The notes under the pieces were generated by a model. That model was not told where the DNA came from, searched no databases, and was given only the letters and a program-made list of their open reading frames with translations. Position numbers and translations under genes: made by a program. From positions 6,820,001 through 6,884,000 of the forward strand of contig OZ336882.1 in the NCBI GenBank assembly GCA_965287045.1: a stretch of 64,000 nucleotides of DNA. Reading direction: 5' to 3'. The first letter of the stretch is position 1; each line of letters starts with the position of its first letter. This DNA comes from Carcharhinus amblyrhynchos. Its lineage: Eukaryota. This document shows positions 1 to 56,023 of this stretch, one piece after another.

Positions 1-1815
1 CAAAAACTGATAGGAAAGCCGTGCATTCTGTCCGGAATCTGAGTCTGTAGCAATTACTTTGGTAATCATGTATCCTGGAGCTGCTGACTTGGGAACAACT
101 TCCATCGCCGTTGAACTATTATCTGCTCGAGGTGAAACGATAGCGGGAATATTGTCATTTTGGTCCAAGACAATAATGTTGACTATGGCAGCGCTGCTTA
201 GTCGGGGAGATCCATTATCTTGAGCTTGGATTTTAATCTCAAAATTCTTCCGCACTTCATAATCGAAGGAGCGCAGCGCGTAAATGCGCCCAGTTTCCGC
301 GTTAACCGTCACGTCGCCAGACACGGAACGTTCTTGTGCGCTTTCCTCCAAAAGAAAATACGACACCTTGCTATTCTTGTTCAAATCAGGGTCTAAAGCA
401 GTTACAGCAAATACCAATGCACCCGGAGTGTTGTTTTCCATCAGGAAGGCATTATATGATGGTTGTGTAAACCGGGGAGCGTTATCATTTATATCAGAAA
501 TTGAAATGAGGATGGTTCTATTTGTTGAAAGACGGGGTGATCCTGCATCCCAAGCTGAAATGCAGATGTTATATAACGGAGTCGTTTCGCGATCCAGTTT
601 ATCGCTGATTACCAAACTGTATTTATTATTCAAAGACTTTTGAAGTTTAAACGGGATATTCGGGGGCGCCTGACAATTTACCTGTCCATTTTCACCAGAA
701 TCTCGATCCATTACACTTATTATAGCGACTACTGTCCCGACAGCAGTATCTTCCCATATTTCACTGGATACTGAGGTAATTTTTAACTCCGGCGCGTTAT
801 CATTAATATCAATTAATCCAACAAGAATCTCGGCGCGCCCGACTAATGCGGGTGTTCCAGTGTCCACAGCTTGTACCTCAAGTTCATAAACATGTTTCTC
901 TTCATAGTCCAGTGGTGCTCGAACTCTGATCTGTCCTGTTACCGTGTCCAAAGTGAACAAGTCCTGAACACTTTGAGAAACGTGGCTGGTTAGAAAGTAT
1001 TTTACCTCACCGTTTTTTCCTTCATCTAAATCAGTAGCATTTATTGTAATCACCAAACTACCTTTAGGTGCGTTCTCCATTACGTCAACCCTGTATATCT
1101 GATGATCAAATACGGGTGCGTTATCATTGCCGTCCAGAACAGTAATGATTATTTCTGCAGTGCCAGATCTGTGAGGGATTCCACCGTCGATGGCCATCAA
1201 TGTCAGACCAAAGGTCGACTGTTTCTCACGATCTAACGGGCTTTCTAACACTATTTCGACAACTATACTGCCATCACTTCTCCTGTGAGTCTTTAGGCCA
1301 AAGTGATTGTTTGTACTGATTTGATAAGCACTCACAGTGTTTGTACCGACGTCGGGATCGTGCGCACTCTCGAGAGGAAAGACAGCTCCTGCTGCAGTGA
1401 GCTCGGAGATTTGTAAAGGATATGTGGTTTTGGCAAAACTGGGAGAGTTATCATTTATGTCCAAAATCTCCACATCAATGCGATGCATTTCCAAAGGATT
1501 TTCTACCGTGATATCCTGAGAAACGGAACAGCTCGAGGTTCGGCCACAGATAATTTCCCTGTCGATTCTCTCGTTCACAACCAAAATGCCATTCCCCATG
1601 TTCACCTTCAATAACTGTACGCCGTCATCAGATACCAGCCTAAAATTGCGGTCCGCCATATCTCGAATGTTTAGGCCTAAATCCTCGGCGATATTCCCAA
1701 CAAATGCGCCGCGTTCCATTTCTTCAGGGATTGAGTACCGAATTTTCCCGTAAACTGCGTCCCAGACACAAACTAAGAATATAAAATATAACCAGCGGCT
1801 GAATGCGTTCGCCAT
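1..1815 (-). CDS. pcdh: Clustered protocadherin variable exon 1 (partial; runs off the window start in EC6)
   Basis: Not in the ORF track because no stop falls in the window. Manual translation from the ATG at 1815 gives MANAFSRWLYFIFLVCVWDAVYGKIRYSIPEEMERGAFVGNIAEDLGL...ERIDREIICGRTSSC...DINDNSP...FPLESAHDPDVGTN...DQNDNIP...DSGQNARLSYQFL. This shows a signal peptide, cadherin DRE/DxNDN/AxDxD motifs and the EC1 C-x5-C motif. A CSE lies upstream. Confidence 0.95.
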   Translation of the reverse strand, partial: MANAFSRWLYFIFLVCVWDAVYGKIRYSIPEEMERGAFVGNIAEDLGLNIRDMADRNFRLVSDDGVQLLKVNMGNGILVVNERIDREIICGRTSSCSVSQDITVENPLEMHRIDVEILDINDNSPSFAKTTYPLQISELTAAGAVFPLESAHDPDVGTNTVSAYQISTNNHFGLKTHRRSDGSIVVEIVLESPLDREKQSTFGLTLMAIDGGIPHRSGTAEIIITVLDGNDNAPVFDHQIYRVDVMENAPKGSLVITINATDLDEGKNGEVKYFLTSHVSQSVQDLFTLDTVTGQIRVRAPLDYEEKHVYELEVQAVDTGTPALVGRAEILVGLIDINDNAPELKITSVSSEIWEDTAVGTVVAIISVMDRDSGENGQVNCQAPPNIPFKLQKSLNNKYSLVISDKLDRETTPLYNICISAWDAGSPRLSTNRTILISISDINDNAPRFTQPSYNAFLMENNTPGALVFAVTALDPDLNKNSKVSYFLLEESAQERSVSGDVTVNAETGRIYALRSFDYEVRKNFEIKIQAQDNGSPRLSSAAIVNIIVLDQNDNIPAIVSPRADNSSTAMEVVPKSAAPGYMITKVIATDSDSGQNARLSYQFL

Positions 1816-2044
1816 TATTCCCGATTGGATCATGTTGTAAATACTACAATCTCTCTTTTCGTCTTATCGGCGCCCTGCAATATAAAATACGTCTTGTGGT
1901 GAAGGGAAGTGCCGATATTAAACTGAGAAGCGTAAGATCTCGGAGCGTCTGACCCCCTGATCGTCAGTCGACGATATAAATGCGCTAACAGTTTGTCCTT
2001 TCCTTTGCTTCTGTCTGCGCTTTGTATTAATGGAGGGGGAGGTA

Positions 2045-2130
2045 GATCTCTCCCAGCGTTTGCTTTTCTTATTGGTAGACAGCGACACAAAGAGTCCTCG
2101 CCCATAACTGCACCAAGCATCTCTTAAAGC
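2045..2130 (-). promoter_or_regulatory. Protocadherin promoter module with CSE/CGCT box (putative CTCF site) for gene 1
   Basis: CTTATTGGTAGACAGCGACAC at 2068-2088 (sense GTGTCGCTGTCTACCAATAAG) is identical in all five promoters. It is flanked by GATC (2045) and CTTAAAGC (2123) and lies 253 bp upstream of the ATG. Confidence 0.9.
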
Positions 2131-6235: not shown

Positions 6236-6236
<1 letters not shown>

Positions 6237-6265: not shown

Positions 6266-6268
<3 letters not shown>

Positions 6269-16176: not shown

Positions 16177-18579
16177 TTATTTAGTCAAGATAGTGTTATG
16201 AACATTCAAATCATTCAATGGTAGGGTTGCTTCGCAGGATTTTAGGAACAGGAAATCACTTTTGGATGATTTTGGAGATAAACGGACAGAGTACGGGTAA
16301 GTTCCAGAAGTGGGAAGTGTCTGATGTGCTGCAGTGTAACGTAACAGATCTTTTGGGATAGTTCTCCGACTAAAGGTGTCATTCGAATTACTCCGTCTAC
16401 GGCAACAACAATATGTGGGATTGTAATGATTGATATTCCTGCCCTGTTTGCACTTTAGCACTACCAAAAATATAATGATTGCAAGAAATATAAAAGATGT
16501 TGAGCCAAAAGTGATGATTAAATAAATATTTAGTTCCGAGAAGTTCCCATGATTACTGGGTTGGCGACCTTGGTTGTCGCGCATTTCAAGAACGTTGGTC
16601 AAGACCGAAAAGCAAATGGTAGCCGTGCTGGAGAGGCGGGGTTGCCCATTGTCCTTTACCACGATGATTACTCTTTGCGTGGCAGCGTCTTCGTTTCTAA
16701 AACTTCGGACAGCCCGTATTTCTCCAGAAAATAGGCCAATGCTGAAAAGACTGGTATCAGAAGCTTCCAACATTTGGAATGTTAACCGTGTGTTCATGCC
16801 AGAATCCGCGTCTGTTGCGATTACCTTGGTGATAATGTCTCCTGGGTCTATGGACTGACGATCAATCTCCACTGGTGCTAAACTGTTGCACGGTAAGGGT
16901 GAAACAATCACCGGTGCATTGTCATTTTGATCAAGGATAATAACATTCACGATGGAAGTGCTACTCAGTGGAGGAGATCCAGCATCCTGAGCTTGAACAA
17001 TGATCTTGAAATTCTTCAGCTGTTCATAGTCAAAGGAAAGCAGTGCGTAAATGGCCCCAGTCGCCGAGTTAATTGAAATTGGAGAAGTCGACACATTTTG
17101 TTCTTGACTTTCCATAGAAGAATAGGAAACCGCTCCATTCTCAGCCAAATCTGGATCCAACGCAGTGACGGCAAACAGGAAAGAACCGGGTTGATTGTTC
17201 TCCAGCACAAGCACATCGTATGAGAGCTGCGTAAATTTCGGCGCATTATCATTAACATCAGAAATAGACACCAATATGTGTTTAGTTGTTGCGAGCGGAG
17301 GAGACCCGCCATCCCAGCATGAAATAGATATGTTGTATTGTGGGTACGTTTCACAATCCAAAATATCATTTGAAATCAACTTATAGTTGTTGCTCAGTGT
17401 CTTCTGTAGTTTGAACGGAATATTTACATCAATTTCACATTGAACCTGCCCATTCTCATCAATATCTGGATCCTTTACACTTATTGAGGCTATCAGAGTT
17501 CCAGGATGCGCATCTTCTGGAATAGTACTGGAAACTGAGGTCACCTCTACCTCCGGGGCATTGTCATTCACATCAATTAATCGCACCATTACTTTAGTGT
17601 GACCCGCCATTGCGAATACCCCTTTATCCACAGCTTCAACATGAATCTCATGAATATTACTTTCCTCAAAGTCCAGAACGCCTTCAACGCTGATCTCTCC
17701 GGTTCCTCGGTCCAGTCTAAAGAGCTCACGAGTCCGTTGCGATGTGTGACTGGTGAAAGAATATGTTAATTCAGCATTTGTGCCTTCATCTAAATCAATA
17801 GCATTGACTTTGATCACTAACGTACCTTTAGGGGCGTTTTCAAGTACATTAGTCCTATATATTTCATGATCAAATACAGGCGCATTATCATTCGCGTCCA
17901 CAACATTGATGATAATCTGAGCAGTACCAGATCTGTGCGGATTCCCTCCGTCAATGGCCGTCAACACAAAATGAAATGTTGACTGCTGCTCACGATCCAA
18001 CTGCGTTTCTAAGGATAATCCTGCCATTTTACTCCCATCGCTTTTTGTCTGCACTTTGAGGCCAAAGTGTGCATTTGGACTGATCTGGTAATTACTAATA
18101 GAATTTATACCAATATCCGGGTCGTACGCGCTCTCGAGAGGATAACGCGCCCCCGGAGCGGTAAATTCAATAATCCGGAAAGAATAAACGTCCTTCGAAA
18201 AACTGGGTGAATTGTCATTCACATCCAAGATCTCCACTTCAACGCGGTGCATTTCCAGCGGATTGTCGAGCGCAATTTGAAAAGAAAGGGAACAGGTGGA
18301 GCGTTGTCCACAAAGGTGTTCCCTGTCGATTCTTTCTTTGACAAATAAAATTCCATTTTCGAGATTTACCTCCATGTATTGGTTGCGATCATCAGAAACC
18401 AGCTGAAACTTGCGAGCCGATAACTGCAGAATGTCAAGTTTAAAATCATCTGCGATATTCCCAACAAAAGCTCCAGGTTCCAGTTCCTCTGGAATCGCGT
18501 AGCGAATTTGTCCACAGACCAAATCCGACGCGCAAAGCAGGATGAAGAAAGACGCCCAGCTCTCCGCTGTATGCGCCAT
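16177..18579 (-). CDS. pcdh: Clustered protocadherin variable exon 2 (800 aa; signal peptide, 6 EC, TM, cytoplasmic tail)
   Basis: Intact ORF with QIRYAIPEE, EC1 CGQRSTC, repeated DxNDNxP motifs, TM YLIITFGSTSFIFLAIIIFLVVL, and tail motif SVRLSPKSSKSDFLFLK. Confidence 0.97.
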   Translation of the reverse strand: MAHTAESWASFFILLCASDLVCGQIRYAIPEELEPGAFVGNIADDFKLDILQLSARKFQLVSDDRNQYMEVNLENGILFVKERIDREHLCGQRSTCSLSFQIALDNPLEMHRVEVEILDVNDNSPSFSKDVYSFRIIEFTAPGARYPLESAYDPDIGINSISNYQISPNAHFGLKVQTKSDGSKMAGLSLETQLDREQQSTFHFVLTAIDGGNPHRSGTAQIIINVVDANDNAPVFDHEIYRTNVLENAPKGTLVIKVNAIDLDEGTNAELTYSFTSHTSQRTRELFRLDRGTGEISVEGVLDFEESNIHEIHVEAVDKGVFAMAGHTKVMVRLIDVNDNAPEVEVTSVSSTIPEDAHPGTLIASISVKDPDIDENGQVQCEIDVNIPFKLQKTLSNNYKLISNDILDCETYPQYNISISCWDGGSPPLATTKHILVSISDVNDNAPKFTQLSYDVLVLENNQPGSFLFAVTALDPDLAENGAVSYSSMESQEQNVSTSPISINSATGAIYALLSFDYEQLKNFKIIVQAQDAGSPPLSSTSIVNVIILDQNDNAPVIVSPLPCNSLAPVEIDRQSIDPGDIITKVIATDADSGMNTRLTFQMLEASDTSLFSIGLFSGEIRAVRSFRNEDAATQRVIIVVKDNGQPRLSSTATICFSVLTNVLEMRDNQGRQPSNHGNFSELNIYLIITFGSTSFIFLAIIIFLVVLKCKQGRNINHYNPTYCCCRRRSNSNDTFSRRTIPKDLLRYTAAHQTLPTSGTYPYSVRLSPKSSKSDFLFLKSCEATLPLNDLNVHNTILTK

Positions 18580-18808: not shown

Positions 18809-18893
18809 GATCTCTCGCAACATCTCAGCTTCTTATTGGTAGACAGCGACACAATGTGTCCTAACCAACAACTGCAGCAACAGTTCTTAAAGC
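18809..18893 (-). promoter_or_regulatory. Protocadherin promoter module with CSE/CGCT box for gene 2
   Basis: Invariant 21-mer at 18832-18852, GATC at 18809, CTTAAAGC at 18886; 253 bp from the ATG. Confidence 0.9.
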
Positions 18894-21756: not shown

Positions 21757-24153
21757 TTACTTTCTTACACTACCACCACGAACATTCAAATCATTCAGCG
21801 GTAAAGTTGCTTCGCATGGTTTTATGAACAAAAAATCACTTTTGGATGACTCTGGAGATAAACAAACAGTGTACTGGTGTGTTTCAGAAATGGGAAGCGT
21901 CTGCCGTGCACCAGAATAATTTAGAAGTTCTCGGGGGACAGTTCTACGATTTATGTAGTCATTCGAGTTACTTCGCTTGCAACAACAGTAACTTGTGGAG
22001 GGATAATAATTTGTATACGTGCTCTGCTTGCACTTCAGTACCACCAGGAAAATAATTATTACAAGAAATATGAAGGATGTTGAGCCAAAGATGATGATTA
22101 AATAAGCATTCAGGTCAGAAAATTGTTCAGGACTTGTGGGTTGGTGACTTCGTTTGGAGAGATTTTCAGTAACATTGGTTAGGATTGAGAAGAAGATTGT
22201 AGCTGTGCTAGATAAGCTGGGCTGCCCATTGTCTTTCACCAAGATTATCATTTTTTGTATGGCGCAGTCTTGCTCCTTAAAATGTCGCACCGCTCTTATA
22301 TCTCCAGACAGTCGCCCCAGACTGAAGAGACTTGGATCAGTGGCCTCCAGAATTTGAAAGGAAAGCCGCATATTCTGCCCAGAATCCGCATCAGATGCGA
22401 TTACCTTGGTGATCAAATGTCCTGGATATATGGATTGGCGCAGAATCTCCACGGCCAAGGAACTATTCCAAGTTAAAGGAGAAACAATAATTGGAGCATT
22501 GTCATTCTGATCCAAGATAATAACATTCACAGTGGCAGTGCTGCTCAAGGGTGAAGATCCCGCATCCTGAGCTTGAACAATGATCTGGAAATTCTTCAGC
22601 AGTTCGTAATCAAATGAAAGCAGCGCATTTATCCTCCCACTCTTCGAGTTGATCGTAATATAAGAAGACGCAGATGTATATTGTATCTGTTTTTCATGCA
22701 TAAAGTAGGACACTTCACCATTCTGATCCGTATCTGGATCTGCAGCGCTAACACTAAATATAGAAGCACCGGGTGTATTGTTTTCCATCACAAACACGTT
22801 GTATGAGGACTGTGTAAACCTTGGAGGATTATCATTTACATCAGAAACTGATACCATTACAATTTTACTTGTAGCAAGAGGCGGAGATCCTCTGTCTCGG
22901 GCCGTAATTGATATGTTGTATTGCGGGGTAGTTTCCCGATCCAAATCACCACTTGTAACTAATTTATAATTGTTGCCGAAAGACTTCTGGAACTTAAATG
23001 GTATATCCACGTCAACATCACATTGGATTTGCCCATTTTCACGAGAGTCTGCATCCCTTACGCTGATTGTAGCTACTACCGTCCCAGACTGCGCGTCTTC
23101 TGGGACTGTACTAGATATCGACGTCACTTCAACCTCAGGCGCGTTGTCATTCACATCAATTAGTTCTACCATAACTTTGGCATGTCCTGCCATTGGATAT
23201 TCACTTTTGTCCACTGCTTCTACATCAAGTTCGTACATAGGCGATTCTTCAAAATCTAATATTCCTTCAACTTTTATTTCTCCATTTATCGGGTCCAGTG
23301 TGAACAACTCCCGAGCCTTTTCGGAAACGTGGCTAGTGAATGAATATGTTAACTCAGCGTTTTTACCTTCATCCAAATCAACAGCATTGAGTTTTATCAC
23401 TAATGCACCTTTGGGGGTGTTTTCTAAAATATTGGTACTGTATGTTTCACTGTCAAATGCAGGTGCGTTATCATTCGCATCCACAACATTAACAACAATC
23501 CGAGTAGTGCCAGATCTATGGGGGATACCACCGTCAGCAGCTGTCAGTACAAGATGGAAGGTTGACTGTTCTTCACGGTCCAAGGTTTTCTGTAACAGCA
23601 GCTCGGCACTTTTAGTTCCATCATTTCTTGCCTGCACTCTGAGGTCGAAGTATTCATTTGGGCTAATCTGGTAACTGCTGATTGCATTTGTGCCGACGTC
23701 GGGGTCGTGCGCGCTCTCGAGAGGCAAACGCTTCCCTGGCATTATTAACTCATTGATCCGCAAAGCATATTCGTCCTTTAAAAAACTAGGTGAATTATCA
23801 TTTATATCTAGTATTTCCACTGCAACGCGATGCATTTCCGAAGGATGTTCAAGCAGTACTTGGAATGAAAGGGAACACACAGGGCTTTGCCGACAGAGCT
23901 GTTCTCTGTCGATTCTTTCATTAATAAATACATTTCCATTTTCCAGATTTACCTCCATGTATTGTTTCCTGCTGTCGGAGACAAGTCGAAAATTGCGGAC
24001 CACTATTTCCCGAGCGTTTAGGCTTAAATCATCAGCGATATTCCCAACAAAGGCCCCATACTCCAGCTCCTCGGGAATCGAGTAGCGAATTTGTCCTGAA
24101 ACCAGGACCGATATACACAGCAGAAAAATGAAAGAAGCCAGTATATTCGTCAT
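21757..24153 (-). CDS. pcdh: Clustered protocadherin variable exon 3 (798 aa)
   Basis: Intact ORF with QIRYSIPEE, CRQSPVC, six cadherin repeats, TM, and tail YTVCLSPESSKSDFLFIKP. Confidence 0.97.
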   Translation of the reverse strand: MTNILASFIFLLCISVLVSGQIRYSIPEELEYGAFVGNIADDLSLNAREIVVRNFRLVSDSRKQYMEVNLENGNVFINERIDREQLCRQSPVCSLSFQVLLEHPSEMHRVAVEILDINDNSPSFLKDEYALRINELIMPGKRLPLESAHDPDVGTNAISSYQISPNEYFDLRVQARNDGTKSAELLLQKTLDREEQSTFHLVLTAADGGIPHRSGTTRIVVNVVDANDNAPAFDSETYSTNILENTPKGALVIKLNAVDLDEGKNAELTYSFTSHVSEKARELFTLDPINGEIKVEGILDFEESPMYELDVEAVDKSEYPMAGHAKVMVELIDVNDNAPEVEVTSISSTVPEDAQSGTVVATISVRDADSRENGQIQCDVDVDIPFKFQKSFGNNYKLVTSGDLDRETTPQYNISITARDRGSPPLATSKIVMVSVSDVNDNPPRFTQSSYNVFVMENNTPGASIFSVSAADPDTDQNGEVSYFMHEKQIQYTSASSYITINSKSGRINALLSFDYELLKNFQIIVQAQDAGSSPLSSTATVNVIILDQNDNAPIIVSPLTWNSSLAVEILRQSIYPGHLITKVIASDADSGQNMRLSFQILEATDPSLFSLGRLSGDIRAVRHFKEQDCAIQKMIILVKDNGQPSLSSTATIFFSILTNVTENLSKRSHQPTSPEQFSDLNAYLIIIFGSTSFIFLVIIIFLVVLKCKQSTYTNYYPSTSYCCCKRSNSNDYINRRTVPRELLNYSGARQTLPISETHQYTVCLSPESSKSDFLFIKPCEATLPLNDLNVRGGSVRK

Positions 24154-24347: not shown

Positions 24348-24432
24348 GATCTCGACCAGCGTTTCAGCTCCTTATTGGTAGACAGCGACACAGAGTGTCC
24401 CAACCAATAACTGCAACAACTGCCCTTAAAGC
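24348..24432 (-). promoter_or_regulatory. Protocadherin promoter module with CSE/CGCT box for gene 3
   Basis: Invariant 21-mer at 24371-24391, GATC at 24348, CTTAAAGC at 24425; 218 bp from the ATG. Confidence 0.9.
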
Positions 24433-33012: not shown

Positions 33013-36000
33013 CAGGATAGGGACTGATGACCTGGGGGGAGTAATTTGTGGGGGTTGGCGGGGGGGGGGGAGAGGGAAATACTTGCAAGAGTAGTTGAGG
33101 AGAGTTTAAAGTAATATGGTAAGTGGTGGGAATCTTTTCAAGGATTAGGAGAAAAAAGAACAAAGAACAAGAGAAAAATAGAGAAATAAGGAAAATCATA
33201 GGCAGATGAATCAAGGGCCACAGTTAGAAATAGTAGGAAAGGGAAAAGATATGTTAAAAGTGCCCTCCTTAAGGAATCGCACCTGAATGCTCAGAGCTTT
33301 CGAAATAAAAATGGATGATTTAGTTGCACCATAAAGGGGTGTGGCATAGTGGAATTACGGAGACGTGGTTCCAATGTGATCAAGAATGGGGACTAAGCTT
33401 TGAGGGCTGTTCAGTGTTTAGGAAGTTCAGACAGAAAGGAAAATATGGTGGAGCTGCATGATGGATTAAAGATGATATACGATATTGAGGAAAGATATTG
33501 GCGTAGATGATGAGGAATCTGTGTGGGTGGAGTTAATAAACAAGGGCAAAATACATTGGTAGGCATGGTTTATATACCAACAAACTGTTGTGGTAATGCT
33601 AGGAAAAAAACATTAGACAGGAAATCAGGGATGCATGTGTTAAAGGAACTTCTTTGATTATGGTTGACTTTAATCTGCATATAGATTGTGAGATTCAAAT
33701 TAGTCACAGTACAATAGATGAGGAATATCTGGACCGCATAAGAAATGGTTTTCTGGAGCCAACTGAGGAACCAACAAAGGAGCAGGCCAACCTGGACTAG
33801 GTATTGTGCAATGAGAAAGAATTGGTTGGCAATTTAGTTGTGAGAAAACCCGAGGGGATGACTGACCATAATATAGTAGAACTCTTTGTCAAGGTAGATA
33901 GTGATGAAGTTCATTCTAATACCAGGGTCCTGAATCTCAATAAAGTTAACTATAATGGTATGAGGCATGAATTGTCCATGAAGGACTGGGAAACATTATT
34001 GAAAGAAATGTCAGTGGACAGGCAGTGGCGGGTATTTAAGGAATGAATAGCTGAACTCCAGAAGCTGTTTATTCTTGTTTGGCGCAAGAGTGATGAGGGA
34101 ATTGTGGCCACCCCATGGCTTACAAGGGAAATTAGAGACAGTATCAGATTCAAGGAAGAAATATACAATGCGGCAAGAGAAAACAACAGGATTGGGAACA
34201 GATGAAAATTCAACAATGGAGGACCAAGGAATTGATTAACAAAAGAGAAATTGAGTCTGAAAGTAAGCTAGCTGGGTACATAAAAACTGACTGTAAAAAA
34301 TTATTTCGATGTGTAAAGAGAAAAAAGATGGGCTGAAAATGAAAGAAGGCCCCTTACATTCAGAAACAGGAAGTTCATAAGGGGGAATAAAGAAATGGCT
34401 GAGGAATTAAATTTGTACTTTGACTCAGGCTTCACAAAGGATGATATGAATAATGTACCAGAAGTGCTGAGGGAAACATGTCTTAGTTAGGAACTGAAGG
34501 AAATCAGCATTAGTAGAGAAATGTTTGTGGCAAAATTGAAGAGGTTGAAGGTGCATAAATCTCCTGGTCCTGATAAACCTTATCCCAGAGCACTTGAGAA
34601 AATGGCCCTGGAAGTAATAGATCCATTGGTGGTTATTTTCCAAAATTCATTGGATTTTGGAACAGTTCCTACAGATTGGAGATTAGCTCATATATGTCCA
34701 CTATCAAAAAGGGAGGTAGAGAGAAAACAGGGAGTTATAGACAAGTGAGCCTAACGTCAGAACTGGGGAAGCTTCTAAAGTCTATTTTCAAGGATTTCAT
34801 AACCCAAAATTTGGAAGACATCGGAATATTCAGACAAAGTCAGAATGGATTTACAAAAGGGAAATCATGCTTGACGAATCTATTGGAGTTTGAGGATAAA
34901 ATAGTAGAGTTGACCGAAGAGAGCCTCTGGATGTGGTTTATTTAGGCTTTCAGATGGCTTTTGACAAGGTCTCACATAACAGACAATACAAAGTTAAAAC
35001 ACACAGGATTGATGGTAATGTTTGGGCTTGAATAGAAAGTTGGTTAGCAGATGGGAAGCAAAGATTTGGCATAAATGGGCCTTTTTCTGATTGGCAGTCA
35101 GTGACTGGTGAGGTTCTGCAGGCATCTGTGCTACGATCTCAATGGATCACATTATATATATTAATAATTTGAAAGAGGGAACTGAATGTATTATCTCCAA
35201 ATTTGCAGGTGATACAAAGTTGGGTGGGAGGGTGAGCTGTGAGAATGATGCAGAGATGTATCAGCGTGTTTTGAACAGACTGGGTTTATGGGCATCTGCA
35301 TTGCAGATGCAATACAATGTGGATAAATGTGAGGTTATCCACTTTGGCAACAATAAAATGGAGACAAATTATTACTTGAATGGTGTAAACTGAGAAAGGT
35401 AGGTACTCAACGAGACCTTGGATCCCTCATTCATCAGTTGCTGAAAGTAAGCTTGCACGTACAGCAGGCAGTAAAGAAGGTGAATTGTATGTTGGCCTTC
35501 ATGGCGAGAGGTTTTAGTTGTAGGAATAGGGATGTTTTGCTGCAATTTTGTAGGGCGTTGGTGAGGCCACGTCTGGAGTTTTGTGCAGTGGTGGTATTAT
35601 TTTCTGAGGAAGGATGTCCTTGCTATAGAGAGAGTTCAGCAAAGACTTACCAGGCTAATTCCTGGGATGCCACATCTATCATTTGAGGAGACATTAAGTC
35701 GGTTATGGTTCGATTTACTGGAGTTTAGAAGAGTGAGAGGGGCTCTCATAGAAAATTGTAAAATTCTAACAGGGTTAGACAGGGTAGATACAGAAAGAAT
35801 GTTCCCAATGCTGGTGGAATCCAGAACTAGGGTTCATAGTTTGAGGATAAGGAGTGACCCTTTTAGAATTGCAGTGAGGAGAAACTTCTTCATCTGGAGA
35901 GTGGTGAATCCGTGGAATGCACTACCACAGAATATAGTTGAGACTAAAACATTACCTGATTTCAAGAAGAACGTCGATAGAGTATTGAGGCTAAAGGGAT

Positions 36001-38286: not shown

Positions 38287-40680
38287 TTAATTTCTTCCGT
38301 TGATGTCATGAACACTCACATCATTGAAAGGCAACGTAGGATGACAGGGTTTTAAAAAGAGAAAATCACTCTTCGATGATTCAGGTGATAAACACACAGT
38401 GTAACGATAACCTTCAGTCTGAACTGACCCGCTGTAATTTAAAGGTTCACTTGTGGCTTGCCTCCGATTAAAACCATCATTGGAATTCCTCCGACTATAA
38501 CAACGACCTGTAGAGGTATAGTCTTCAGCAATATTTCTGTCTTGTCTATACTTCAGGATGACCAATCCAATAATCGTTACCAGGAACAAAAAGGAAGTGG
38601 ATCCTAAAATGATGATCAGATAACTATTTAGATCTGAAAAATATTCCAAGCGTCTGGGTTCATCCATTCGTTCAAAAGAGTTCTCAGTCACATTGGACAT
38701 TATTGTAAAGGAGATTGTGGCCGTACTGGAGAGGCTTGGTTGTCCATTGTCCTTCACACAGAGGATCACATTTTTTGTAATGATTTCTTGGTCTCTAATA
38801 CTTCGTGTTGCTCTGATTTCCCCAGAGAGAATACCAATTGTGAACAGATTAGGATCAATGGCCTCCAATAATTGGAAGGAAAGCCTCGCATTCTGACCAG
38901 AATCCTCATCTGTCGCAATCACCTTGGTGATTAAGTAACCTGGATAAGTTGACTGGGGCATTATCTCCACGAATGCTGAGCTGTTCCACGTCAGAGGTGA
39001 AAGGATAACCGGCGCATTGTCATTTTGGTCTAGGATAATAACATTGACAATAGCAGTACCACTTAATGGAGGAAATCCAGCATCATGAGCTTCAACGCTG
39101 AATTGAAAATGTTTCAGTTGCTCATAATCAAAGGACTGCAGTGCGTAAATGTTCCCATTCTTGGAGTTAATCGTGACGTAAGCAGAGGAAGACATATCTT
39201 GCTTTGCATTGTCGAGAATAGAATAGGAAATTTCTCCATTTTGATTCAAATCAGCATCATATGCATTAACAACAAATATAGAAGCACCAGGTGTATTATT
39301 CTCCATCAGGTATACATTATATGAGGATTGTGTAAATTTTGGAGCGTTGTCGTTGATATCAGTTATGGAAACCAAGATGAGTTTACTTGTTGAAAGAGGT
39401 GGCGAGCCTCCGTCCCAGGCAGAAATGGAGATGTTGTACAATGGGATCAGTTCATGGTCCAGAATACCGTTGGTAACCAACTTGTAGTTATTCCGTAAAG
39501 GGTTTTCAATGTTGAACGGAATACTCCCTGGAATCTGACAGTGAACTTCTCCAAATTCATCAGAATCAGCATCAGTTACACTGAACAAAGCTATCGTCGT
39601 TCCTGCTGGAGCATCCTCCCGCACAGCACTGGCAACTACAGTTACGTGCAACTCAGGAAAATTATCGTTCGTGTCAATGACATCGACCACAACATTTGCA
39701 TGGGCTGCCAATCCTGGTGGAACATGTTCCACTGCTTGTACGTCAAGTTCATAAACATTCGCTTCTTCAAAATCCACGACTCCTTGAACTCTGATCTCCC
39801 CAGTAGCAGGGTCCAATTGGAACAAATCACGGATATTTTGGGAAACGTGATTGGTGAAGGAATATGTTACTTCAGCATTTGTACCTTCATCCATATCCGC
39901 AGCATTAATTTTTATCACTAAGGTACCATTGGCGACGTTTTCCACGACAGTCGCCCTGTAGGTTTCCTGATCGAAAATAGGGGCGTTATCATTTCCGTCC
40001 ATTACATTAATGATAAGCTGAGCTGTGCCAGACCTGTGAGGAATCCCACCGTCTATGGCCGTCAGTTGAAGAGTAAACATTGATTGTTTCTCGCGGTCTA
40101 AAGGCTTTTTCAGTAAAAGCTCAGCATTTTTACTTCCATCCCGTCTTGTCTGCACTTTGATAGCGAAGTTCTCGTTTGGACTGATCTTGTAAGTGTTGAT
40201 TGCGTTTGTACCTACATCCGGATCCTGCGCGCTCTCGAGAGGGAAGCGCGCCCCTGGCGCAATTAATTCATTGATCTGCAAGTGGAATTCCCTCTTCGGA
40301 AAGATGGGCGAATTATCATTTACATCTTGTATCTCCACTGAAACGGGATACATTTCCAAAGGGTTGACGAGCGCGATTTGAACAGAAAGTGAACAGGGAG
40401 AGCTTTTTTTGCAAATCTGTTCTCTGTCGATTCTTTCATTAACAAATAAAAAACCATTTTCCGGATTTACCTCCATGTATTGTTTCGGGTCATCTGAAAT
40501 CAGCCGAAATTTGCGAGACGGTAATTCCCAAACATTAAGTCGTATATTTTCAGCGATATTCCCAATAAAGGCCCCACGTTCCAGTTCCTCAGGAATCGAG
40601 TAGCGAAGCTGCTCCGAAACCAAGTCGGACACACACAGCACGAAAATGAAGACCGTCCGACTCATCAGTAAGTTCGCCAT
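38287..40680 (-). CDS. pcdh: Clustered protocadherin variable exon 4
   Basis: Intact ORF. The first ATG in paralog-like context (GCG ATG GCG) is at 40680, giving MANLLMSRT...QLRYSIPEE. Six ECs, TM, and tail YTVCLSPESSKSDFLFLKP. The ORF-track start at 40722 is non-ATG. Confidence 0.96.
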   Translation of the reverse strand: MANLLMSRTVFIFVLCVSDLVSEQLRYSIPEELERGAFIGNIAENIRLNVWELPSRKFRLISDDPKQYMEVNPENGFLFVNERIDREQICKKSSPCSLSVQIALVNPLEMYPVSVEIQDVNDNSPIFPKREFHLQINELIAPGARFPLESAQDPDVGTNAINTYKISPNENFAIKVQTRRDGSKNAELLLKKPLDREKQSMFTLQLTAIDGGIPHRSGTAQLIINVMDGNDNAPIFDQETYRATVVENVANGTLVIKINAADMDEGTNAEVTYSFTNHVSQNIRDLFQLDPATGEIRVQGVVDFEEANVYELDVQAVEHVPPGLAAHANVVVDVIDTNDNFPELHVTVVASAVREDAPAGTTIALFSVTDADSDEFGEVHCQIPGSIPFNIENPLRNNYKLVTNGILDHELIPLYNISISAWDGGSPPLSTSKLILVSITDINDNAPKFTQSSYNVYLMENNTPGASIFVVNAYDADLNQNGEISYSILDNAKQDMSSSAYVTINSKNGNIYALQSFDYEQLKHFQFSVEAHDAGFPPLSGTAIVNVIILDQNDNAPVILSPLTWNSSAFVEIMPQSTYPGYLITKVIATDEDSGQNARLSFQLLEAIDPNLFTIGILSGEIRATRSIRDQEIITKNVILCVKDNGQPSLSSTATISFTIMSNVTENSFERMDEPRRLEYFSDLNSYLIIILGSTSFLFLVTIIGLVILKYRQDRNIAEDYTSTGRCYSRRNSNDGFNRRQATSEPLNYSGSVQTEGYRYTVCLSPESSKSDFLFLKPCHPTLPFNDVSVHDINGRN

Positions 40681-40909
40681 CGCTCTGGCAGAATTGTGTG
40701 GCACAATATTGAAATTTCTCACAATAGAGTATATTGATTTGCGTCGTAGAACATAACAATTACCAACAGTATATCGTTATCCTACTACGAATGGACGAAC
40801 GTAACGACACAATGTGGAGAGCTTTTCCAAACATGTCCGCGCACCACAAAGGCAAAGACTGTCTGGCTCTCCGATTCTGTTCTGTTTCGCTAACGAAGGA
40901 GGGGGGGTC

Positions 40910-40994
40910 GATCGCTCGCAGAGTCTCGGCTTCTTATTGGTAGACAGCGACACGAAGAGTCCCAACCAATAACTGCAACAAATTTTCTTAAAGC
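40910..40994 (-). promoter_or_regulatory. Protocadherin promoter module with CSE/CGCT box for gene 4
   Basis: Invariant 21-mer at 40933-40953, GATC at 40910, CTTAAAGC at 40987; 253 bp from the ATG. Confidence 0.9.
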
Positions 40995-42151: not shown

Positions 42152-42582
42152 AAAGAACAAAGAGCAAACAAAATTACAGCACGGGAACAGCCCTTCGGCC
42201 CTTTAAGTCTGCACCGACAATGCTGCCACCTTCCGGGCACCATATCCCTCTACTTCCATCTCACTCATGCACTTGTCAAGACGCCCCTTAAAGGTCACTA
42301 AAGTATCCGCTTCCATTACTACCCCGGCAACGAGTTCCAGGTACCCACCATTCTCTGTGTAAAAAATCTATCTCGTACATCTGTTTTAAACGTTGCCCCT
42401 CGCACCTTAAACCTGTGCTCCCTAGTTTTTGACTCTTACACCCTGGGAACCAGCTTCTGACTATCCACTCTGTCCATGCCTGTCATAATCTTGTAGACTT
42501 CTATCAGGTCTCCCCTCAACCTCCGTCGCTCCAGTGAGAACAACCCAAGTTTCTGCAACTTCCCCTCATAGCTAATACCCTT
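42152..42582 (-). mobile_element. 5'-truncated CR1 LINE 3' end
   Basis: (AAAGAAC)-type tail, CCCTTCGGCCC, and TCATAATCTTGTAGACTTCTATCAGGTCTCCCCTCAACCTCCGTCG (reverse complement of RRLRGDLIEVYKIM). Confidence 0.88.
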
Positions 42583-47869: not shown

Positions 47870-50800
47870 ATAGGAGCTACAGGCACTTAGAAAGGCAAAA
47901 ACTGATTAGGGACATTCAACGTGGTTTCTGAGTGGAAAATCATATCTCACCAATTTGATTGAGTTTTCTGAAAGTTTAACGGAGAAGGTAGACGAGGGCA
48001 GTGCAGCCGACTTTGACAAGGTACCACATGGTAGGTTGTTGCATGAGTTTAAACTTCGCAGGATCCAGGGTGAAGTAGCTAATTGGATACCAAAGATAAA
48101 AATAGAGGCTGGTTGCAAAGGGTTATTTTTCAAACTGGAGGCCAGTGACCAGCGGTGTGCCTCAGGGATCAATGTTGGGCCCATTGTTATTTGTCATTTA
48201 TATTAATGATTTAGATGAGAATTTAGGAAACATGGTTAGTAAGTTTACAGATAACATCAAGATTGGTGGCATAGTGAGCAGTGAAAAACGTTATCTAGGA
48301 TTGCAAAGGGATATTGATGAATTGGACCAGTAGACTAATGAATGACAGATGAATTTTAATGTCGATTAATATGAGGTAATGCATTTTGGCAGATCAAACC
48401 ATGGCAGGACTTACTCTCAGTTAATGGTAGGGCACTGGGGAGAGTTATAGGACAAAAAGATCTCGGGGTACAAGTTCACAGCATCTTGAAAGTGGAATCA
48501 TAGGTGGACAGGGTGGTGAAGAAAGCAATTCGGCATCCTTGCTTTAATTGGTCAGAGCATTGAATGCAGGAGCCGGGACACCTTGCCGATGCTGTACAAG
48601 ATGTAGGTAACTTCGCACTTAGAATACTGTGTACAGTTCTGGTCACCCTATTATAGAATAGATACTACTTAACTAGAAAGAGTGCCGAAAAGGTTTACTG
48701 GGATGCTACCAGAACTTGATGGTTTGAGTTATAAGGACAGGCTGGATAGACATGAACTTTTTCCCTGGAGTATAAGAAGTGTTGCGGTGATCTTATATAA
48801 GAACATAAGAACATAAGAAATAGGAGCAGGAGTAGGCCATCTAGCCCTTCGAGCCTGCCCCGCCATTCAATAAGATCATGGCTGATCTGTCGTGGCTCAG
48901 TTCCACATTCCCGCCCTCTCCCCATAACCCTTAATCCCCTCTCTTATCAAAAACTCATCAGCCCGCGTCTTAAAAATATTTAGCGAGGTAGCCTCCACCA
49001 CTACAACGGGCAGAGAATTCCAGAGATTCACCACCCTTTGAGTGAAGACGTTCCTCCTCAACTCCGTTCTAAACCGCACCCCCCCCCCCCCCCCACCCTT
49101 TATCTTGAGGCTGTGCCCCCTAGTCCTATTATCCTTTCTGAGCGGGAAGAGTCTCTCCACGTCTATCCTATCCATCCCATTCATCATCTTATACGTCTCA
49201 ATGAGATCTCCCCTCATTCTTCTAAACTCTAACGAGTACGAGCCTAGTTTATTCAGCCTCTCCTCATAGCTCAACCCCCTCAACTCCGGCATCAGCCTAG
49301 TAAACCTCCTCTGCACTCCCTCCAAGGCCAAAATATCCTTGCGTAAGTACGGCGCCCAAAACTGCACACAGTACTCCAGCTGCGGCCTCACCAATGCTCT
49401 ATACAGCCGCAGCAAGACCGCCCTACTTTTATATTCAATCCCCCTCGCTATGAAGGCCAGCATTCCATTCGCCTTCCTGATCACCTGCTGCACCTGCAGG
49501 CTGGGTTTTTGCGACTCATGCACAAGGGCCCCAAGGTCCCTCTGCACCGTCGCCTGCTGCAGTTTTTTGCCATGTAAGTGATAATCCTTCCTACCATTAT
49601 TCCTACCAAAGTGGACCACCTCGCACTTGCCAACATTAAATTCCATTTGCCATTTCCTGGCCCATTCGCCCAGCTTATCTAGATCCTTCTGTCGACTCTC
49701 CACACCCTCCGCACAATTTGCCTTTCCTCCAATTTTGGTGTCATCAGCAAATTTCGACACCCTACACTCGGTTCCCTCCGCCAGGTCATCTATATAAATG
49801 GTAAATAGCTGAGGCCCCAGCACTGACCCCTGAGGCACTCCACTAGTCACCATCCGCCAATCCGAATAGCACCCATTGACTCCCACTCTCTGCCTCCTAT
49901 TTGACAACCAATCCTCTATCCACGCTAACACCCTACCCCCAACTCCCTGTCCCCTGACCTTCTGCAATAACCTCCTGTGAGGTACCTTGTCAAACGCCTT
50001 CTGAAAATCCAGAAAGACCACATCCACCGGCTCTCCTCTATCCACCGCCCTAGACACATCCTCATAGAACTCCAGTAAATTTGTCAGACACGACTTCCCT
50101 TTAACGAAACCGTGCTGCGTCTGCTCTATCAAGCAATTCCACTCAAGATGCCTCGTTATTTCCTCCTTGATGACGGATTCTAACATTTTACCTACAACAG
50201 ACGTTAAACTAACCGGCCTATAATTCCCTGCCTTTTGCCTGGCACCCTTCTTAAACAACGGCGTAACATTAGCCGCTTTCCAATCTTCCGGCACTTCCCC
50301 GGAATCCAGCGACGTCTGGAAAATAACCATCAAGGCATCCACTATCACCTCCGCCATTTCTTTCAGAACCCTCGGATGCATTCCATCCGGTCCTGGCGAC
50401 TTGTCCACAATCAGTCCCTCCAGTCTGTCGAGCACCTCCTCTCTAGTAACAGTAATGTCATTAAGACCCTCCAGTCCTACCACCTTTCCATCTCTAACAC
50501 CCGGCAAATTATTCACGTCCTCCTCCGTGAAGACAGAAACAAAAAAGTTATTCAGGACCTCAGCCATATCCCCATCCCCTACCACTAAGTCCCTCTCCTC
50601 ATCCTCTAAGGGGTCTATTAAATAATGATGGGTATAGATAAGGTAGATAGTCAACATTTTTCCCGTAGGTTTGGGAGTCTAAAACTAGAAGGTATAGTTA
50701 TAAGGTGGGGGGGGGGGAATACAAAATGGCCCAGAGGGACATTTAGTTCACACTGAGGGTGGTGAGTGTCTGAACTAAGCTGCCAGATGTAGTAGAAGGT

Positions 50801-53629: not shown

Positions 53630-56023
53630 CTATATTTTTGTGTTGGCATCCCGGACACCCAAGTCATTGAAAGGCAAGGTAGGATTACAGGGCTTTAAAA
53701 ACAGAAAATCACTTTTCGCTGACTCTGGCGATAAACACACGGTATAGTGATAACCTTCAGTCTGAGCAGACTCGGCATAGTTAAATGGTTCGTTTGGTGC
53801 AGACCTCCGGTTAAAGGCATCGTTCAAATTCCGTCTTCTGTAACAACAAACCGCAGAGTTGTGATCTTCAGCGATATTTCTGCCTTGATTAAACTTCAGC
53901 ATGACAAGGGAAATGATGGTTACAAGAAATAAAACCGATGTTGATCCCAATATAACGATTAAATAACCATTAAGATGCGAAAAATACTTCGATGCACCAG
54001 GTTCATCAATTTGTTCAGAAGAATTTTTTGTTACATTGGACAAGACGGTAAATGAGATCGTAACCGTGGTGGAAAGGCTTGGCTGTCCATTATCGTTCAC
54101 AATGACGACCAATCTTGCTGTGCTGGTACTTTGCTCCCTTAAACGTTGTCTTGCTCTGATTTCCCCAGAGAGAAGGCCCACAGTGAACAGATTGGAACCA
54201 TTGGTCTCCATCGATTGATAGGAAAGCCGGGAATTCTGACCGGAATCCGCATCAGTCGCGATTATCTTGGTCACCAAATATCCTGGATGCAATACTGACT
54301 GCTGCCCAATCTCCACTGATGCCGAACTGTTCCAGGTTAAAGGTGAGACAATAACCGGTGCGTTGTCATTTTGATCCAAGATTATAACATTGACAATGGC
54401 AGTACTGCTCAGCGGGGAAGATCCCATATCCTGGGCTTGAACTTTGATCTGGAAGTGCTTCAACTGTTCATAGTTAAAGGAACGCAGGGCGTAAATGTCC
54501 CCATGTTTGGAATTGATGGAGACGTAAGGAGTCCCGCCTCTTCCTTCATTCTGAGCCTCCAGAATTGAATAGTGAATCTCACCGTTCCGGCCTAAATCTG
54601 AATCCAATGCTGTGACAGCAAATATAGAAGCACCTGGAGTGTTGTTCTCCATCTGATATATGTTATATAAGGATTGTGTGAAATTTGGCACATTGTCATT
54701 TATATCTGAAACGGAAACTAAAAGAGTTGTATTTGTTGAAAGAGGGGGAAATCCCCCGTCCCAGGCTGAAATACAGATGTTGTATGTCGGGGATGCTTCA
54801 CGATCCAAAATACCATTGGTAACCAACTTGTAGCTGTTCTTCAACGTTTTTTGAAGTTTGAATGGAAGTTGCCTTGGAATGTGACACCGTACGTGCCCAT
54901 ATTCGCCAGAATCTGGATCCATAACACTGACCAAAGCGATCACAGTCCCCGGAGGAGCATCTTCCTGCACTGAGCTGGACACCAAAGTCACGTCTATCTC
55001 GGGGATGTTATCATTCGTGTCTATCAGTCCAACCATCACTTTTGCCCGTCCAGCCACACCAGGCGGAGCGTTATCCATGGCCTCTACATCAAGTTCGTAA
55101 ACACTTGCTTCTTCAAAATCCAGTACACCTTGGACTGTTATTTCTCCAGTTTTGGGGTCTAAATTGAACAATTCGCGAATACCCTGGGGAACATGGCTGG
55201 TGAAAGAATAGGTCAGTTCAGCATTGGTACCTTCATCTGTATCAGCAGCGTGGACTGTTGCCACCAACGTCCCTTTGCGGGAATTTTCTGCGACGCTGGA
55301 TTTGTATATTTCGTGATCAAATATAGGTGCGTTATCATTCGCGTCCAGGATAGTGATTGAAATCCGGCTTGTGCCAGATCTCGGGGGTTCACCGCCATCA
55401 ACAGCCGTCAGCACAAGGTTGAAGGTTGACTGCTGTTCACGGTCCAAGGCTTTCTCTAACAGCAGCTCAGCACTTTTGCTTCCATCATTTCGTGTCTGAA
55501 CTCTGATGCCAAAATGTTCATTTGGACTGATCTGGTAAGTACTGATTGCATTTGTGCCGATGTCCGGGTCGTGCGCGCTCTCGACAGGGAAGCGCGCACC
55601 TGCCGAAATTGACTCACTGATCTGCAAGAAGAATTCGCTATTCGGAAATTTGGGTGAATTATCATTTACATCTAATATTTCCACTTCAACAGGATGTATT
55701 TCCAAAGGTTTATCGAGGACGACTTGCAACGAAAAGGAACAGGCAGGGCTTTGTCGACAAAGCTGTTCTCTGTCGATCCGTTCATTAACAAATAAAACCC
55801 CATTTTCCAGATTTACCTCAATGTATTGCTTCCTTTCTTCGGAGGCCAGGCGAAATTTACGAGCCGATAATTCCCAAATATGTAATCTCAAATTCTCAGC
55901 GATGTTCCCAACAAAGGCCCCGTGCTCCTGCTCCTCGGGAATCGAGTAGCGAATTTGTCCTGAAACCAGGTCCGACAGACAGAACAGAAAAATGAACGTT
56001 ACACCGCAACTCATTGAGGCCAT
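53630..56023 (-). CDS. pcdh: Clustered protocadherin variable exon 5
   Basis: Intact ORF. ATG at 56023 (ACA ATG GCC) gives MASMSCGVT...QIRYSIPEE, with CRQSPAC, six ECs, TM, and tail YTVCLSPESAKSDFLFLKP. The ORF-track start at 56053 is a TTG. Confidence 0.96.
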   Translation of the reverse strand: MASMSCGVTFIFLFCLSDLVSGQIRYSIPEEQEHGAFVGNIAENLRLHIWELSARKFRLASEERKQYIEVNLENGVLFVNERIDREQLCRQSPACSFSLQVVLDKPLEIHPVEVEILDVNDNSPKFPNSEFFLQISESISAGARFPVESAHDPDIGTNAISTYQISPNEHFGIRVQTRNDGSKSAELLLEKALDREQQSTFNLVLTAVDGGEPPRSGTSRISITILDANDNAPIFDHEIYKSSVAENSRKGTLVATVHAADTDEGTNAELTYSFTSHVPQGIRELFNLDPKTGEITVQGVLDFEEASVYELDVEAMDNAPPGVAGRAKVMVGLIDTNDNIPEIDVTLVSSSVQEDAPPGTVIALVSVMDPDSGEYGHVRCHIPRQLPFKLQKTLKNSYKLVTNGILDREASPTYNICISAWDGGFPPLSTNTTLLVSVSDINDNVPNFTQSLYNIYQMENNTPGASIFAVTALDSDLGRNGEIHYSILEAQNEGRGGTPYVSINSKHGDIYALRSFNYEQLKHFQIKVQAQDMGSSPLSSTAIVNVIILDQNDNAPVIVSPLTWNSSASVEIGQQSVLHPGYLVTKIIATDADSGQNSRLSYQSMETNGSNLFTVGLLSGEIRARQRLREQSTSTARLVVIVNDNGQPSLSTTVTISFTVLSNVTKNSSEQIDEPGASKYFSHLNGYLIVILGSTSVLFLVTIISLVMLKFNQGRNIAEDHNSAVCCYRRRNLNDAFNRRSAPNEPFNYAESAQTEGYHYTVCLSPESAKSDFLFLKPCNPTLPFNDLGVRDANTKI

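What the first reader, a model, noticed from the sequence alone, without database searches (positions are those of the whole stretch)
1347..55597. CpG-rich palindrome inside EC2, 692-693 bp from the promoter CSE: a candidate dual-use exonic regulatory element
Seen: the perfect 10-bp palindrome CTCTCGAGAG at 1367, 18131, 23714 and 40232, and one-mismatch CTCTCGACAG at 55578. It lies in the codons for (F/Y/L)P(L/V)ESA(H/Y/Q)DPD. Synonymous positions repeatedly use CpG-forming codons (CTC GAG AGC GCG CAC GAC CCG/CCC GAC), although the rest of the exons is comparatively CpG-poor and synonymously diverged. Distances to the CSE are 692, 692, 648, 692 and 693 bp. In gene 5 a longer ATG-CSE spacer is offset by a leader one codon shorter. 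Established: mammalian Pcdh-alpha exons carry an exonic CTCF site and an antisense lncRNA promoter that drive promoter choice. From memory, the homologous mammalian peptide FPLEGA is encoded by CCACTAGAGGGCGC, and the shark sense sequence CCTCTCGAGAGCGC matches 11/14 of it. Inference: an ancestral or alternative exonic element. Two CTCF-critical bases differ, so a different dimeric factor may bind.
Basis: partly seen in the sequence, partly recalled or inferred. Interest (0 to 1): 0.7.

Follow-up and report, generated by a model that had tools for sequence, protein, structure and literature searches.

The report
Shark protocadherin exon's hidden regulatory site
Five shark clustered-protocadherin genes keep a short CpG-rich stretch nearly unchanged at silent positions, at the spot matching the mammalian exonic CTCF site, so it is likely an old second control site for choosing which gene a neuron expresses, though binding is untested.

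Summary
The window holds five shark clustered-protocadherin exons, probably epsilon-type. The palindrome positions, peptide and spacings are confirmed. Codons P-L-E-S-A form the least synonymously diverged 6-codon window of the exon (pS 0.10-0.11 against 0.55; exon-wide p about 0.01, 0.05-0.08 under a 5'-codon-usage null). The site is also the exon's CpG peak. Published human eCBS probes bracket the homologous peptide, so the site sits where the mammalian exonic CTCF site (eCBS) sits, 718 bp from the promoter site and on the same strand.

Three corrections. The conserved unit is an asymmetric 16-18 bp block, not just the palindrome. The spacing is already fixed at the start of EC1. The exons are not CpG-poor. 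Canonical CTCF binding is doubtful: this is the best CTCF-like register of 3,460, but it scores only 0.8-6.9 bits, and 3 of 5 conserved wobble bases are ones CTCF disfavours.

Best reading (0.40): a methylation-sensitive exonic element paired with the promoter site. Neutral retention remains plausible (0.28). Only five paralogues could be compared, and no shark chromatin data were seen.

The parts
1360..1377 (-). Gene 1 conserved exonic block (codons P-L-E-S-A-H; contains the palindrome 1367-1376); positional homologue of the mammalian eCBS
   Evidence: CTCF-register score 0.8 bits
18124..18141 (-). Gene 2 conserved exonic block (palindrome 18131-18140)
   Evidence: 2.4 bits
23707..23724 (-). 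Gene 3 conserved exonic block (palindrome 23714-23723); 44 bp closer to its CSE than in genes 1, 2 and 4
   Evidence: 6.9 bits
40225..40242 (-). Gene 4 conserved exonic block (palindrome 40232-40241)
   Evidence: 3.7 bits on the sense strand, 8.1 bits in an antisense register
55571..55588 (-). Gene 5 conserved exonic block; a Leu-to-Val change breaks the palindrome (55578-55587)
   Evidence: 3.0 bits
2068..2112 (-). Gene 1 promoter CSE: 21-bp block identical in 5 of 5 genes (2068-2088, CGCT box plus CCAAT), with TGCAG 17 bp upstream of the CTCF-core register
18832..18876 (-). Gene 2 promoter CSE with upstream TGCAG
24371..24415 (-). Gene 3 promoter CSE with upstream TGCAG
40933..40977 (-). Gene 4 promoter CSE with upstream TGCAG
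56280..56324 (-). Gene 5 promoter CSE with upstream TGCAA
1..1815 (-). Gene 1 protocadherin large exon (runs off the window)
16177..18579 (-). Gene 2 protocadherin large exon, 800 aa
21757..24153 (-). Gene 3 protocadherin large exon, 798 aa, leader 3 codons shorter
38287..40680 (-). Gene 4 protocadherin large exon, 797 aa
53630..56023 (-). Gene 5 protocadherin large exon, 797 aa

Best explanation
Each of the five shark protocadherin exons carries a 16-18 bp CpG-dense block conserved at silent positions, lying about 718 bp (674 in one gene) from the promoter CSE at the position homologous to the mammalian exonic CTCF site, and it is likely a methylation-sensitive protein-docking site that would work with the CSE to decide which promoter is switched on. 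SHOWN: low synonymous divergence, a CpG peak, a position and strand matching the eCBS, and a weak CTCF-like core. INFERRED: (1) the block is under selection as DNA, not only as protein; (2) it is read when unmethylated by a GC/CpG-binding factor, with CTCF binding weak or secondary; (3) as in mammalian Pcdh-alpha, occupancy or antisense transcription from this region would keep the 5' exon and CSE demethylated and stabilise the promoter-enhancer loop. The palindrome is probably a by-product of the peptide plus three fixed wobble bases. The strong mammalian eCBS would be the same site after a Ser(AGY)-to-Gly step and wobble changes.
For: Synonymous divergence: pS 0.11 at PLESA against 0.55 exon-wide and 0.27-1.31 at 11 other conserved motifs; lowest of 287 six-codon windows. 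Top window at widths 4-6 codons under both nulls; exon-wide p 0.010-0.012 at widths 5-6 and 0.007-0.009 by permutation of real columns matched for degeneracy, where the local value was reached in 0 and 1 of 20,000 permutations. Rare codons are retained: CTC is 8% of Leu codons and GCG 21% of Ala codons. CpG: 28 in 10 codons against 9.8 or 11.7 expected with amino acids fixed, exon-wide p 0.003 or 0.014. Position: primers of the published human PCDHA6 and PCDHA12 eCBS probes read in frame as the peptides just before and just after the FPLEGA stretch (PMC11667065 Table S7, translated by eye), and mouse Pcdha7 FPLEGA aligns to shark FPLESA. The eCBS lies about 700 bp from the CSE in the same orientation (PMC7811963); here it is 718/718/674/718/719 bp core to core on the same strand. 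The register is the best CTCF-like one of 3,460 in the aligned exons (mean 3.4 bits; best register away from this site -3.6), p about 0.02 against synonymous simulations, and scores above each gene's own CSE core. Four of five paralogues group with orthologues from other sharks, so the duplications are old. No long identical tract covers the site.
Against: Only five sequences. The signal is 5-6 codons wide and disappears at 9 codons or more. Exon-wide p rises to 0.05-0.08 with 5'-region codon usage, and six widths were tried. Three other 5-codon windows have equal or lower pS, and 47 of 232 invariant-residue columns have one codon in all five genes, so retention of single codons is common. The peptide is conserved for structural reasons: non-clustered PCDH10 has the same FPLESA, and 5-25% of all synonymous encodings of it reach the observed CTCF scores. 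The spacing does not single out the site. No E-box, GC-box or TATA is shared at aligned positions next to the site by more than 3 genes, although bHLH factors mark the mammalian eCBS promoter (bioRxiv 10.1101/360206). That preprint gives the pCBS-eCBS distance as about 1000 bp. No binding factor is identified.
Confidence: 0.4

Rival explanations
1. Neutral retention plus ascertainment. A structurally conserved peptide inherited CpG-rich codons from the common ancestor, and slow shark substitution rates in a little-methylated 5' region left one short window unchanged by chance.
For: Four-fold sites are still 43-56% identical between paralogues. 16 of 20 CpGs shared by four or more genes lie in the first 232 codons. 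Exon-wide p is 0.05-0.08 under the 5' null and not significant at other widths. A block at EC1 codons 37-41 is almost as conserved.
Against: Hypomethylation removes CpG hypermutability but should not push divergence below the exon average. The top window falls on the independently known eCBS position, where the local p is 0.00025 or less at widths 5-6.
Confidence: 0.28
2. It is a true low-affinity CTCF site: a shark eCBS that forms a tandem forward pair with the CSE.
For: Best CTCF register in the exons; same strand and spacing as the eCBS; the conserved block spans matrix positions 4-19. Gene 5's change, and 7 of 8 variants among 80 other chondrichthyan proteins, are Leu-to-Val, a C-to-G change the recalled matrix tolerates. 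Mouse cPcdh CTCF sites have weak cores in general (PMC11217373). A degenerate xSCAG lies 16 bp upstream in 4 of 5 genes.
Against: Scores of 0.8-6.9 bits (p 1e-3 to 1e-4), with two mismatches costing about 4 bits each. One mismatch is a free Leu wobble fixed at the disfavoured base in 5 of 5 genes, and 3 of the 5 conserved wobble bases score negative. The CSEs have a clear upstream module and the exon does not. Defective cores are not rescued by an upstream site (PMC10287918).
Confidence: 0.13
3. A dimeric factor binds the 10-bp palindrome itself.
For: It is the only palindrome of 8 bp or more shared at an aligned position by three or more genes. All three wobble bases that symmetry requires are fixed in 5 of 5 genes.
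Against: Broken in gene 5. Conservation extends 4-5 bp beyond the 3' arm but only 1 bp beyond the 5' arm. 22 of 80 related proteins depart from PLESA. No factor with this site was identified; the recalled BANP/Kaiso element has a different centre.
Confidence: 0.07
4. A conserved RNA or single-strand DNA hairpin pairs codons 143-145 with codons 148-151.
For: Lowest RNAalifold energy of 105 windows on both strands; local p 0.001-0.012 against synonymous simulations.
Against: Three to four of the 8 stem pairs fail in gene 1, no pair shows a two-sided compensatory change, the conserved wobbles include the loop while the 5' arm varies, and by z-score the nearest window is only joint fourth of 53. 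High GC explains part of the energy. No Rfam match.
Confidence: 0.06
5. Old short-tract gene conversion homogenised this spot.
For: cPcdh clusters undergo conversion (PMC4978886); genes 3 and 5 share a 41-nt run elsewhere.
Against: Identical runs at the site are only 7-19 nt and the longest run of no pair. EC2 and EC3 are the least converted domains in other vertebrates. It would need conversion among all five genes over just 15 bp.
Confidence: 0.06

Closest known systems
Mammalian Pcdh-alpha exonic CTCF-binding site (eCBS) and its antisense lncRNA promoter
   Same: Same codons in EC2 (probe primers; alignment), about 700 bp from the CSE, same orientation as the CSE, CpG-rich, repeated in each variable exon.
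   Different: The shark genes are not alpha: they group with Callorhinchus epsilon genes. The peptide is PLESA rather than PLEGA, so the core has two strong CTCF mismatches. It is palindromic and more CpG-dense. Binding, antisense transcription and an enhancer partner are not shown. In the passages read, the eCBS is described only for alpha variable exons.
Clustered protocadherin promoter CSE (pCBS, CGCT box)
   Same: The window's own promoters carry it: 21 bp identical in 5 of 5 genes, 218-257 bp before the ATG, with an upstream TGCA(G/A) module.
   Different: The exonic block lacks the CGCTG/CCAAT tail and a clear upstream module.
GC/CpG-reading zinc-finger or BEN-domain sites (ZBTB14/ZF5; BANP/Kaiso CGCG element) - recalled, not from a call
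   Same: The 3' half of the block is a purine-rich lead into CGCGC, resembling the recalled ZF5 consensus, and the TCTCG half-site is shared with the CGCG element.
   Different: The CGCG element has two more central bases. No matrix for these factors was tested; this is a lead only.

Membership tests
Pcdh eCBS | Lies in the coding region of a variable exon about 700 bp downstream of the CSE | tested here: met
   718/718/674/718/719 bp core to core; PMC7811963 passage
Pcdh eCBS | Occupies the homologous EC2 codons | tested here: met
   Human eCBS probe primers flank the FPLEGA peptide (read by eye); mouse Pcdha7 alignment
Pcdh eCBS | Same (forward) orientation as the CSE | tested here: met
   The best mean register is on the sense strand, like the CSE; in gene 4 alone an antisense register scores higher
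Pcdh eCBS | Canonical CTCF core match | tested here: not met
   0.8-6.9 bits with a recalled matrix, two mismatches of about -4 bits; only p 1e-3 to 1e-4
Pcdh eCBS | Bound by CTCF/cohesin in vivo or in vitro | not testable with these tools
   No ChIP or EMSA data; the shark genome paper recalled to contain CTCF ChIP-seq was not held
Pcdh eCBS | Antisense lncRNA promoter that demethylates the CSE | not testable with these tools
   No RNA data; no widely shared E-box, GC-box or TATA beside the site
Pcdh eCBS | Belongs to an alpha alternate exon | tested here: not met
   All named Callorhinchus hits are epsilon genes; other shark subclusters were not in the tree
Synonymous-constraint (dual-use) element | Local synonymous rate below that of other conserved motifs | tested here: met
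   pS 0.11 against 0.27-1.31 at 11 motifs
Synonymous-constraint (dual-use) element | Significant after exon-wide correction and across species | tested here: inconclusive
   p 0.007-0.012 or 0.05-0.08 depending on the null; no orthologous DNA available
Conserved RNA structure | Compensatory base-pair changes | tested here: not met
   No two-sided change; stem broken in gene 1
Clustered protocadherin variable exon with CSE promoter | Tandem large exons encoding six cadherin repeats, TM and tail, each preceded by a CGCT-box CSE | tested here: met

The most novel reading that the evidence does not exclude
The two-site promoter-choice module (CSE plus an exonic element about 700 bp away) predates the split of cartilaginous and bony fishes and is not alpha-specific. 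Sharks keep a CpG-read, low-CTCF-affinity form in epsilon genes, under selection on both its sequence and its distance from the CSE. The mammalian eCBS arose from it by a Ser-to-Gly codon step and wobble changes that turned it into a strong CTCF site.
Probability: 0.25. Interest if true: 0.72.

Novelty: new variant of a known kind. Interest (0 to 1): 0.45.

Why it matters
Stochastic protocadherin promoter choice gives neurons their identity code. In mammals the alpha mechanism relies on an exonic CTCF site and antisense promoter of unknown origin. A constrained element at the same codons in a shark non-alpha subcluster would date the module to the first jawed vertebrates. It would also show how a protein motif that happens to resemble a CTCF site was co-opted, and it points to one 18-bp target that public shark genomes and ChIP data can test at once.

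Tried and rejected
tblastn of the five proteins against the window found no further exons or relics. An Rfam scan found nothing. The sigma-70 promoter and terminator scan is not meant for vertebrate DNA and found nothing. Windows of 9-12 codons show no synonymous trough. The spacing was rejected as evidence for this site in particular. The DPD codons were rejected as part of the conserved block. Amino-acid variants were tried as a proxy for codon use in 80 chondrichthyan proteins: this works for Ser (variants R, N, G imply AGY throughout) but that follows from descent, and it is weak for Leu. The strongest CTCF-like 19-mer in the window (42221-42239) lies in a repeat, not at any exon. Three key papers were not held: the 2018 shark genomes paper, Yin 2017 and Yu 2008. 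Searches listed no paper reporting an exonic element in shark protocadherins; this covers only the held library, and bioRxiv supplements could not be seen. The cross-species synonymous test therefore stayed unchecked.
Full report
CONTEXT. The window holds five large minus-strand ORFs (ATG at 1815, 18579, 24153, 40680 and 56023) encoding protocadherins with cadherin repeats and a cytoplasmic tail (gene 4). The closest relatives are chondrichthyan, and all Callorhinchus hits with a subfamily name are epsilon genes (one query, best 120 listed). In a tree of 39 rows, genes 1-4 each group with orthologues from other sharks at full support, so the duplications are old. The epsilon label is provisional because mu, nu and delta proteins were not in the set. 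Each ORF has a CSE whose 21-bp core is identical in 5 of 5 genes, with TGCA(G/A) exactly 17 bp upstream of the CTCF-core register. That resembles the upstream site read by CTCF fingers 9-11 (PMC10287918, passages).

OBSERVATION. The palindrome positions, peptide, spacings and the gene 5 offset are all reproduced. Three points need correcting. First, the distance from CSE to the first EC1 codon is already 325/325/281/325/326, so every EC1-EC2 base shares the spacing. Second, the exons are not CpG-poor (other domains o/e 0.68-1.17; window 0.66). Third, only codons P-L-E-S-A(H) are positionally conserved; the following codons have pS 0.77.

IS IT MORE THAN CHANCE? The right null holds the amino acids fixed and allows for shared ancestry. 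Under a star model fitted to the five exons, PLESA is the top window at 4-6 codons. Exon-wide p at 5-6 codons is 0.010-0.012 with global codon usage and 0.053-0.075 with 5'-region usage (which includes the site itself); it is not significant at 4, 7, 9 or 12 codons (4000 simulations). Permuting real columns matched for degeneracy gives 0.009, 0.007 and 0.072 at widths 5, 6 and 7; the local value was reached in 0, 1 and 4 of 20,000 permutations. pS is 0.11 against 0.55 overall and 0.27-1.31 at 11 other conserved motifs. The site ranks 1 of 287 windows at six codons, 4 of 289 at five and 22 of 298 at eight. CpG count in 10 codons is 28 against 9.8 or 11.7 expected; 5 and 21 of 1500 simulations reached this anywhere in the exon. 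The signal looks real but is narrow and rests on five sequences. As a blind scan it is borderline; as a test of a position named in advance it is strong.

THE POSITION IS THAT OF THE MAMMALIAN eCBS. The eCBS lies about 700 bp downstream of the CSE, in the same orientation, in alpha alternate exons (PMC7811963, passages). It is linked to an antisense promoter whose transcription demethylates the CTCF sites (bioRxiv 10.1101/360206, passages, which gives about 1000 bp). Mouse Pcdha7 has FPLEGA where the shark has FPLESA. In Table S7 of PMC11667065 (supplement rows) the forward primers of the human alpha-6 and alpha-12 eCBS probes read in frame as the peptides just upstream of FPLEGA, and the reverse primers as those just downstream of the D-V/I-G motif (my reading by eye). 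The peptide is older than either element: non-clustered PCDH10 has FPLESA too, 58 of 80 other chondrichthyan proteins have PLESA, and their Ser variants (R, N, G) imply an AGY codon one step from Gly. One Heterodontus protein has PLEGA.

IS IT A CTCF SITE? I used a CTCF matrix recalled from memory, not supplied by a tool. The homologous register is the best of 3,460 aligned registers (mean 3.4 bits; 1.1 for the antisense register of the same site; -3.6 for the next). It exceeds synonymous simulations at p about 0.02 and beats each gene's own CSE core (-5.4 to 2.2). Mouse cPcdh CTCF sites have weak cores in general (PMC11217373, passages). But scores are only 0.8-6.9 bits, 5-25% of synonymous encodings do as well, and the best possible encoding scores 15.5. 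Of the five conserved wobble bases, two favour CTCF (+1.4, +1.9) and three do not (-1.5, -4.0, -1.4). Palindrome symmetry accounts for three of the five and CpG formation for three. Selection for CTCF affinity alone would not fix these bases. The block extends asymmetrically 3' of the palindrome and gene 5 breaks one arm, which argues against a strict dimer site. A CpG-dense site for another factor fits best; ZBTB14/ZF5 is a recalled, untested lead.

OTHER READINGS. A hairpin joining codons 143-145 to 148-151 gives the lowest alifold energy of 105 windows (local p 0.001-0.012). However, it fails in gene 1, has no two-sided covariation and is not outstanding once normalised. Gene conversion is unlikely: identical runs at the site are 7-19 nt, and EC2-EC3 are the least converted domains elsewhere (PMC4978886, passages). 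Neutral retention stays the main rival, because four-fold sites are still 43-56% identical and 47 of 232 invariant-residue columns keep one codon in all five genes.

SPACING. The CSE-to-ATG spacers are 252/252/217/252/256 nt. For most pairs ungapped identity is near random beyond the first 50 nt, and an internal block sits at offsets 66-79 in four genes, so equal length was kept despite indels. A toy indel-drift model gives p 0.006-0.057 for four of five lengths within 1 bp. This suggests a length constraint, but it cannot say whether the target is the start site, the ATG or this block, and gene 3 is 44 bp short.

MECHANISM AND NOVELTY. Most likely (0.40) the block is a methylation-sensitive docking site that pairs with the CSE in promoter choice, working like the eCBS. 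It should not be filed as an eCBS: the canonical core test failed, the genes are not alpha, and binding is untested. Eight searches listed no report of such an element in sharks. Three central papers were not held, and I recall that the 2018 shark genomes paper includes CTCF ChIP-seq that may already answer the binding question. Also seen as passages only: bioRxiv 10.1101/525543, PMC13395409, bioRxiv 10.1101/2023.09.27.559875 and PMC3333863. Rows left out: the protein comparison used 80 chondrichthyan hits of 120; four fused or truncated chondrichthyan hits and three unnamed hits were dropped, and 33 other vertebrate hits were only pattern-scanned. The tree used 34 of the 80. Verdict: new variant of a known kind, interest 0.45.

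Noticed in passing
window 2068-2112, 18832-18876, 24371-24415, 40933-40977, 56280-56324 (minus strand): The shark CSE has a CTCF-type upstream module at a fixed 17 bp in 5 of 5 genes. In genes 3-5 the CGCT core sits between two inverted CCAAT boxes 25 bp apart (degenerate in genes 1-2). A GCTTTAAG block upstream and a GATC 19 nt downstream are also shared by all five.
   Followed up: partly
CSE-to-EC1 intervals, e.g. window 1743-2068 and 40608-40933: The length is 325-326 bp in 4 of 5 genes although the UTRs align only with many indels. This is a possible spacing constraint independent of the palindrome.
   Followed up: partly
EC1 codons 37-41, e.g. window 1690-1706 (minus strand): A second block conserved at silent positions (F-V-G-N-I, ending in a CpG shared by all five genes), second-ranked at five codons; not significant exon-wide.
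   Followed up: partly
genes 3 and 5, aligned codons 18-31 (about window 24065-24108 and 55930-55972): A 41-nt identical run across the leader/EC1 boundary, the longest of any pair; a candidate conversion tract.
   Followed up: no
window 48900-50678 (minus strand), related copies at 62914-63571 and 34856-35589: A 593-codon open frame with a reverse-transcriptase domain (Pfam RVT_1, E 3e-34), likely a LINE-type retroelement.
   Followed up: partly
window 42221-42239 (minus strand): The strongest CTCF-like 19-mer in the window (16.7 bits with the recalled matrix), 1.3 kb upstream of gene 4's CSE, inside a repeat that has a diverged copy near 27.6-28.0 kb.
   Followed up: partly
3' ends of ORFs at window 16177, 21757, 38287, 53630: Each complete ORF ends at its own stop codon with no splice donor shared by all four, which suggests single-exon, beta-like genes without a constant region (inference).
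   Followed up: no
protein P0075 (Heterodontus, gene 1 clade): Carries PLEGA, the mammalian alpha-type peptide, showing that the Ser-to-Gly step has also happened in a shark gene; a natural comparison for CTCF binding.
   Followed up: no
whole window: CpG o/e is 0.66 overall and 0.48-0.87 between genes, high against what I recall for vertebrate bulk DNA.
   Followed up: no
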